From contig MU057719.1 of the NCBI GenBank assembly GCA_013265495.1, positions 870,001 to 930,000 on the forward strand: a stretch of 60,000 nucleotides of DNA, in the 5' to 3' direction. This DNA comes from Vicugna vicugna (Eukaryota). The notes under the pieces are model-generated. The model was not told the origin of the DNA. It saw nothing but the letters and a program-made list of their open reading frames with translations, and did no database searches. This document shows, one piece after another, positions 37,272-59,143 of the stretch. Made by a program: the position numbers and the translations under genes. Numbering within the stretch: the first letter of the stretch is position 1; the number at the start of each line of letters is the position of its first letter.

Positions 37272-59143
<21,872 letters not shown>

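What the first reader, a model, noticed from the sequence alone, without database searches (positions are those of the whole stretch)
51530..51538. Natural N-glycan sequon at the position of human K608 in the ADAMTS13 spacer
Seen: exon 16 encodes [16 protein letters not shown]. The recalled human sequence is YVVAG-KMS-ISPNTTYP, so K608 is Asn in an N-G-S sequon and the N614 sequon is lost. Established, from memory: an engineered K608N glycan shields human ADAMTS13 from anti-spacer autoantibodies in immune TTP while keeping activity. The epitope residues R568, F592, R660, Y661 and Y665 appear conserved here. Inference: this species carries a natural version of that glycan shield.
Basis: partly seen in the sequence, partly recalled or inferred. 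Interest (0 to 1): 0.7.

Follow-up and report, generated by a model that had tools for sequence, protein, structure and literature searches.

The report
Common mammalian sugar site on ADAMTS13
This camel-family animal's clot-limiting enzyme ADAMTS13 has a sugar-attachment signal at exactly the spot where engineers added one to the human enzyme to hide it from autoantibodies, but most hoofed mammals, carnivores, bats, whales, elephants and rabbits have it too, so it is an old shared trait and not a special shield.

Summary
Observation confirmed. Minus-strand 51538-51530 reads AAT GGG AGC (Asn-Gly-Ser) in the spacer exon of a camelid ADAMTS13 gene. It aligns without gaps to human K608-M609-S610. 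The N614 sequon is absent, and R568, F592, R660, Y661 and Y665 are intact.

The site is not peculiar to this species. 54 of 96 placental genera carry a sequon at 608: 42 of 49 laurasiatherians, 8 of 8 afrotherians, 2 of 2 lagomorphs, 0 of 11 primates, 1 of 22 rodents. No non-placental genus has it (0 of 82), while 80 of 82 carry N614. N614 was probably lost early in placentals, and the camelid inherited N608 from the laurasiatherian ancestor. At least six laurasiatherian lines lost it again.

Best reading: ordinary glycosylation-site turnover on a surface loop, one base change away from Lys. Shielding from human iTTP antibodies is a plausible by-product, not a shown or selected function; occupancy is untested. 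The engineered K608N thus copies a state common in mammals. I found no paper saying so, but could not read the key papers.

The parts
51530..51538 (-). N608-G609-S610 sequon (human numbering), codons AAT GGG AGC
51392..51573 (-). ADAMTS13 spacer exon holding the sequon (182 nt; whole codons cover human 597-656, 43 of 60 identical)
51512..51520 (-). S614-T615-S616: no sequon; the Ser codon AGC is one transition from Asn
53198..53206 (-). N552-S-T sequon, as in human; the Camelus records have Ser here
53177..53185 (-). N559-G-S: second spacer sequon absent from human (K559), present in 68 of 96 placental tips
53156..53158 (-). R568, epitope/exosite residue, conserved
52505..52513 (-). N579-L-T sequon, as in human
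52472..52474 (-). F592, epitope/exosite residue, conserved
48664..48681 (-). R660, Y661 ... Y665 loop, all three conserved
48658..48660 (-). A667: the human N667 sequon is absent

Best explanation
This is an inherited N-glycosylation sequon in the spacer domain of an ordinary camelid ADAMTS13, one case of the gain and loss of glycan sites that runs through this protein. SHOWN: the sequon lies at human position 608; most laurasiatherian genera and all sampled afrotherian and lagomorph genera share it; non-placental vertebrates have N614 instead. INFERRED from parsimony: N614 was lost early in placentals; N608 was present in the laurasiatherian ancestor; whether it arose once at the placental root or about four times is unresolved. 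Ser610 is already there in most K608 lineages, so one third-position base change (Lys to Asn) creates the site. INFERRED from the human mutant and general knowledge: the site is glycosylated in the ER, because the same position takes a functional glycan in human K608N. The glycan then lies beside exosite-3 without blocking VWF cleavage. It is tolerated or weakly useful (folding, solubility, clearance) and dispensable. Hindering human anti-spacer IgG is a likely side effect (my estimate about even odds or somewhat better), not the reason it exists.
For: Distribution: 54 of 96 placental genera, 1 mixed, 41 without; 0 of 82 non-placental genera, with N614 in 80 of 82. The identical N-G-S triplet occurs in 11 genera, including Bos, Ovis, Cervus, Loxodonta and Marmota. 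Dispensable: 6 parsimony losses in Laurasiatheria against 3 each for N552 and N579; 31 of 96 genera have neither 608 nor 614. Ser/Thr at 610 is about as common without Asn608 (35 of 40 triplets) as with it (55 of 58), so it is not visibly held by the glycan. Turnover is general: 13 positions carry a sequon in at least 5 genera, and human sites 614, 667, 707 and 1354 are minority states (13 of 90, 11 of 89, 7 of 89, 18 of 78). Surface position beside exosite-3: PMC5893608 passage. Activity is kept with a glycan at 608: PMC12138515 and PMC9826392 passages.
Against: No glycoproteomic data were seen, so occupancy is inferred. Retention in 42 of 49 laurasiatherian and 8 of 8 afrotherian genera, never with Pro in the middle position (0 of 58 triplets), and a Ser-to-Thr change that keeps the sequon in Ochotona suggest some purifying selection, so 'nearly neutral' may understate it. 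If the gains were independent (parsimony prefers that by one step), repeated gain could reflect a benefit. Sampling is of 90%-identity cluster representatives, and only the best 120 of 392 and 120 of 308 hits were listed.
Confidence: 0.72

Rival explanations
1. The glycan tunes the spacer-CUB autoinhibitory contact or VWF A2 binding. Residue 608 is at the rim of the surface that binds both, so species with the glycan would have a differently balanced closed/open enzyme.
For: A modelling preprint places a K608-D1362 salt bridge in the closed form (10.1101/2025.11.26.689657 passage). K608 is listed among the surface neighbours of exosite-3 (PMC5893608). Glycans engineered on the CUB side all opened the enzyme (PMC12138512, whole text).
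Against: D1362 does not co-vary: it is Asp in every mapped placental genus but one (Glu in Otolemur), whatever lies at 608. All 8 exosite core residues are unchanged in the camelid. [quoted passage not shown] K608N leaves activity unchanged.
Confidence: 0.13
2. Compensatory shift: the 608 glycan replaces the ancestral 614 glycan on the same loop and keeps a folding or secretion role.
For: N614 is nearly invariant outside placentals (80 of 82 genera). 51 of the 54 genera with the 608 site lack 614, and 10 of the 13 genera with 614 lack 608.
Against: 31 of 96 genera have neither site and 3 (Orycteropus, Rhynchocyon, Ochotona) have both. By my hand arithmetic on those counts, independence would give about 36 with neither, close to the 31 seen. 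Genera are not independent.
Confidence: 0.1
3. An evolved immune shield: the glycan was selected to hide the spacer epitope from autoantibodies, and primates are exposed because they lack it.
For: The position is identical to the engineered shield, and the five epitope residues are intact. 0 of 11 primate genera have it. A human anti-spacer scFv abolishes ADAMTS13 activity in mice (PMC11326488 passage), which have K608.
Against: No animal other than humans is known to have true autoimmune TTP, although K608 is shared by most rodents, all sampled primates, xenarthrans, marsupials and birds. The site was lost repeatedly. A rare adult disease gives little selection (inference).
Confidence: 0.04
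4. The sequon is present but mostly unoccupied, so it has no glycan effect at all.
For: N-X-S sites are on average less fully used than N-X-T (recalled). No occupancy data were seen.
Against: Human K608N uses the same Ser610 and shields in two expression systems. The site follows a beta strand and starts an unstructured stretch in a model of a relative (low confidence there).
Confidence: 0.1

Closest known systems
Engineered human ADAMTS13 NGLY3 (K608N), Ercig et al. Blood 2021. Original paper not held; seen through passages of PMC12138515, PMC9826392 and bioRxiv 10.1101/2025.06.12.659386, and the whole text of PMC12138512
   Same: Asn at 608 with Ser at 610, beside intact R568, F592, R660, Y661 and Y665
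   Different: Natural and inherited. The middle residue is Gly, not Met. The background lacks N614 and N667, has N559, and differs from human at 29 of 128 spacer residues. Occupancy and antibody resistance are unmeasured.
ADAMTS13 orthologues of Laurasiatheria, Afrotheria and Lagomorpha (public records, e.g. Camelus, Bos, Ovis, Sus, Canis, Felis, Equus, Loxodonta, Oryctolagus)
   Same: Sequon at 608 and, in nearly all, Ser at 614; the same N-G-S triplet in 11 genera
   Different: Nothing at this site; the window's exon is 59 of 60 identical to the dromedary record
Species-variable N-glycan sites of ADAMTS13 (N1235 and N1354 in the CUB domains, described as variably conserved in PMC8051872; passages)
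   Same: Gain, loss and shift of sequons on surface loops between species
   Different: This site borders the main autoantibody epitope and coincides with a therapeutic design

Membership tests
ADAMTS13 orthologue | Spacer sequence closest to ADAMTS13 | tested here: met
   Only PDB hits are human ADAMTS13; the named hits are ADAMTS13 records or unnamed/hypothetical proteins with the same spacer family; Pfam ADAMTS_spacer1
ADAMTS13 orthologue | Disintegrin-like, TSP1, Cys-rich, spacer, TSP1 repeats and two CUB domains in order | tested here: met
   tblastn of human P0112 covers residues 229 to the C-terminus in colinear order along the minus strand from 58819 to about 37200; domain names for these stretches are recalled; the 5' exons lie outside the window or in the N gap
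NGLY3-like glycan shield | Asn-X-Ser/Thr (X not Pro) at position 608 | tested here: met
NGLY3-like glycan shield | Epitope residues R568, F592, R660, Y661, Y665 retained | tested here: met
NGLY3-like glycan shield | Site exposed on a loop next to the epitope | tested here: inconclusive
   A model of a relative puts it after a strand in an unstructured stretch with pLDDT under 50. A paper lists it as a surface neighbour of exosite-3 in the human crystal structure. No distances could be measured.
NGLY3-like glycan shield | Glycan actually attached at Asn608 | not testable with these tools
   needs glycoproteomics
NGLY3-like glycan shield | Reduced binding or inhibition by iTTP anti-spacer IgG, dependent on the glycan, with VWF cleavage kept | not testable with these tools
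   needs recombinant protein and patient IgG
Species-specific adaptation | Restricted to this species or family | tested here: not met
   54 of 96 placental genera

The most novel reading that the evidence does not exclude
The spacer epitope of ADAMTS13 is glycan-shielded at 608 in most placental mammals. The primate line lacks this glycan, and apes also lack the 559 one. This leaves the exosite bare and is one structural reason why anti-spacer autoimmunity (iTTP) is a human disease. The therapeutic K608N would then restore a shield that nature has tested in most mammals.
Probability: 0.08. Interest if true: 0.72.

Novelty: new member of a known kind. Interest (0 to 1): 0.3.

Why it matters
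As a fact about this genome it is ordinary: the animal shares the site with cattle, pigs, dogs, horses, bats and elephants. The wider pattern is a useful footnote for TTP research. An engineered therapeutic substitution matches the natural state in more than half of the placental genera sampled, which supports its structural tolerance. It also predicts that patient anti-spacer IgG will act poorly on pig, dog, cattle or rabbit ADAMTS13 but well on primate and mouse enzyme, which bears on the choice of animal models. Natural pairs with and without the site (Felis and Panthera, Smutsia and Manis, Marmota and Sciurus, two Rhinolophus species) make the test cheap.

Tried and rejected
1. Species-specific shield: rejected by distribution.
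2. My first reading after (114 records, none with both sites) was that N614 is a simian/murine novelty and that 608 and 614 exclude each other. Both were rejected: N614 is the non-placental state and three genera have both.
3. Covariation of 608 with CUB2 D1362: none.
4. Single-sequence structure model: unusable (pLDDT 34.5). The 31-row model (mean pLDDT 57) matched human ADAMTS13 structures but is unreliable at the loop itself.
5. The 50%-cluster search was swamped by TSP1-repeat proteins and gave only about ten usable spacer-bearing outgroups.
6. Sequencing runs: 20 of 24 rows hold the stretch or part of it, 5 on record as RNA. No reads were laid, so I use none of this as evidence; polymorphism and splicing at read level stay unchecked.
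7. No likelihood estimate of the state at the placental root is available; only presence/absence parsimony.
8. Literature: nine searches found no paper noting a natural Asn608 and no test of patient IgG on pig, dog, cattle or rabbit ADAMTS13; most were judged from listings only. Muia 2019 and Ercig 2021 are not held. The cross-species spacer alignment (fig. S7) of PMC8051872 could not be read and may show the site.
9. The Tupaia record (low quality, aberrant just upstream of the site) is counted in the 54 but was treated as unknown; without it the count is 53 of 95.

Full report
Observation. The window holds most of an ADAMTS13 gene on the minus strand. Bases 51538-51530 read AAT GGG AGC, Asn-Gly-Ser, in a stop-free frame of an AG/GT-bounded 182-nt exon at 51573-51392. 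The exon's 60 whole codons match Pfam ADAMTS_spacer1 and, in the PDB, only human ADAMTS13. The alignment is ungapped and puts N-G-S on K-M-S and S-T-S on N-T-T. One constant offset on the human record P0112 reproduces R568, F592, K608, N614, R660, Y661, Y665 and N667, and all 22 exosite and rim residues named in PMC5893608, so the numbering is safe. All five epitope residues and all 8 exosite core residues are conserved in the window; 5 of 14 rim residues differ (H588Q, K608N, M609G, N614S, N667A), and 29 of 128 mapped spacer residues differ overall. The organism is a camelid: the best hits are Camelus records at 98%, with 6 differences from the dromedary record over four spacer-region exons. 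An earlier scan note calls the genome South American-type (e1-7856118); I checked only that it is not identical to the dromedary record. All four Camelus records have the same N-G-S, so the codon is not an assembly error.

The engineered variant. K608N (NGLY3) is described as shielding ADAMTS13 from anti-spacer antibodies while keeping activity (PMC12138515, passages; PMC9826392, passages; PMC12138512, whole text). A membrane-bound K608N fragment resisted 13 of 13 patient plasmas (bioRxiv 10.1101/2025.06.12.659386, passages). The original paper is not held.

Distribution in placentals. Three homologue searches were seeded with the camelid exon, the human Cys-rich/spacer region and a distant tetrapod record. 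They listed 114 of 114, 120 of 392 and 120 of 308 hits. I dropped unnamed records from the genus counts (26, 1 more, 2); clade labels are recalled. Of 96 placental genera, 54 have a sequon at 608 in every record, 1 is mixed (Rhinolophus) and 41 lack it. By clade: Laurasiatheria 42 of 49 (plus the mixed one; absent in Acinonyx, Panthera, Mustela, Neovison, Manis, Sorex), Afrotheria 8 of 8, Lagomorpha 2 of 2, Scandentia 1 of 1 (a low-quality record), Primates 0 of 11, colugo 0 of 1, Rodentia 1 of 22 (Marmota), Xenarthra 0 of 2. Eleven genera have the same N-G-S triplet. The N614 sequon occurs in only 13 of 96 genera and in none of the 49 laurasiatherians; 3 genera have both sites and 31 have neither.

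Distribution outside placentals. 0 of 82 genera (5 marsupials, 34 birds, 17 squamates, 6 turtles, 1 crocodilian, 17 amphibians, 2 lobe-finned fish) have a 608 sequon, and 80 of 82 have N614. No monotreme or named ray-finned fish was listed. Records are representatives of 90% clusters, so variation within a cluster is hidden.

History. Presence/absence parsimony was run on six recalled species topologies, with Tupaia unknown at 608. It puts loss of the 614 sequon at or before the placental root (9 against 10 steps; 9 against 11-12 for Boreoeutheria) and the 608 sequon in the laurasiatherian ancestor (10 against 11 steps on the full tree, 6 against 8 within the clade). At the placental root, absence is preferred by a single step (10 against 11), so one early gain with losses in primates, rodents and xenarthrans, and about four separate gains, cannot be told apart. 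Either is easy: Ser/Thr610 is present in 35 of 40 triplets without Asn608, so a single third-position change from a Lys codon makes the sequon (genetic code), and the window's Ser614 codon AGC is one transition from Asn. Within Laurasiatheria the 608 site shows 6 changes, against 3 for N552, 3 for N579 and 7 for 559. Over the whole protein, 13 positions carry a sequon in at least 5 of 90 genera. Four human sites are minority states, and two sites absent from human (559 and 608) are majority states, 62 and 51 of 90.

How it most likely works. Shown: position, sequence context, distribution. Inferred: the Asn is glycosylated during secretion, since the same position with the same Ser610 yields a working shield in the human mutant. 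The human structure has K608 among the surface neighbours of exosite-3 (PMC5893608 passage). A model of an unnamed relative with N-A-S at the site places the Asn just after a beta strand at the start of an unstructured stretch, but confidence there is under 50, so it adds little. The glycan would stand beside the VWF- and CUB-binding surface without blocking cleavage. Its repeated loss, and the 31 genera with neither loop glycan, say it is dispensable. Its long retention, the absence of Pro in the middle position (0 of 58) and the N-A-T form in Ochotona say it may be mildly favoured. I put this reading at 0.72.

Rivals. An effect on spacer-CUB latency (0.13) draws on a modelled K608-D1362 salt bridge (bioRxiv 10.1101/2025.11.26.689657 passage), but D1362 does not co-vary with 608 and latency is reported across vertebrates (PMC8051872 passages). 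Compensation for the lost 614 glycan (0.10) fits the broad pattern but not the genera with both or neither. An unoccupied sequon gets 0.10. A selected immune shield (0.04) lacks a selective agent: a review says no animal besides humans has true autoimmune TTP (PMC11326488 section 9), although most rodents, marsupials and birds have K608. That a human anti-spacer scFv inactivates the enzyme in mice (same review, passage) fits the pattern but tests only the unshielded side. Whether the camelid enzyme resists human patient IgG is a separate, open question. I think it somewhat more likely than not, but the other spacer differences would confound it without an N608Q or N608K control.

Comparison and novelty. 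It works like NGLY3 in position and context. Membership as a functional shield needs occupancy and antibody data that these tools cannot give. As a species-specific trait it fails. Species-variable glycan sites in ADAMTS13 are a known kind, and the sequences are in public records. Nine searches of the held library found no statement that Asn608 occurs naturally; most hits were judged from listings. The library lacks the two most relevant papers, and a published cross-species spacer alignment could not be opened, so prior notice is quite possible. The scan's own index had no matching earlier finding.

Verdict. Real, correctly placed, and ordinary for this genome. The interesting part is not the camelid but the inversion it reveals: the therapeutic substitution copies the common placental state, and primates are among the exceptions. 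Interest 0.30; new member of a known kind.

Noticed in passing
window 44434-45177 and 45178-45921: Perfect (100%) 744-bp tandem duplication holding a whole 121-nt ADAMTS13 exon with its splice sites (about 45766-45646 and 45022-44902, minus strand). Including both copies would shift the frame, so an assembly artefact is likelier than a functional duplication.
   Followed up: partly
window, within 56817-57344: A second perfect tandem duplicate, period 168 bp, in intronic sequence just after an ADAMTS13 exon; possibly the same kind of assembly artefact.
   Followed up: no
window 53177-53185 (minus): N559-G-S: another spacer sequon absent from human and the two other ape records, present in 68 of 96 placental tips.
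   Followed up: partly
window 48658-48660 (minus): The human N667 sequon next to the R660-Y665 loop is absent here and in most placentals (present in 11 of 94 tips), but present in all five marsupials and most birds seen.
   Followed up: partly
window 53198-53206 (minus): N552 sequon is intact in the window but is Ser in all four Camelus records, a glycosylation-site difference within camelids.
   Followed up: no
proteins P0068, P0076, P0077 (Marmota, Sciurus): Squirrel-family ADAMTS13 has Q568, H661 and H665, changing three of the five epitope/exosite residues, although Y661 and Y665 are described as perfectly conserved in PMC8051872.
   Followed up: no
window 58098-58444: 347-base run of N; the 5' exons of ADAMTS13 (before human record residue 229) were not found in the window.
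   Followed up: no
window about 36470-36350 (minus): Likely first coding exon of the next gene on the same strand; from recall it resembles CACFD1, the human neighbour of ADAMTS13. A Pfam scan of a nearby fragment gave no supporting family.
   Followed up: partly
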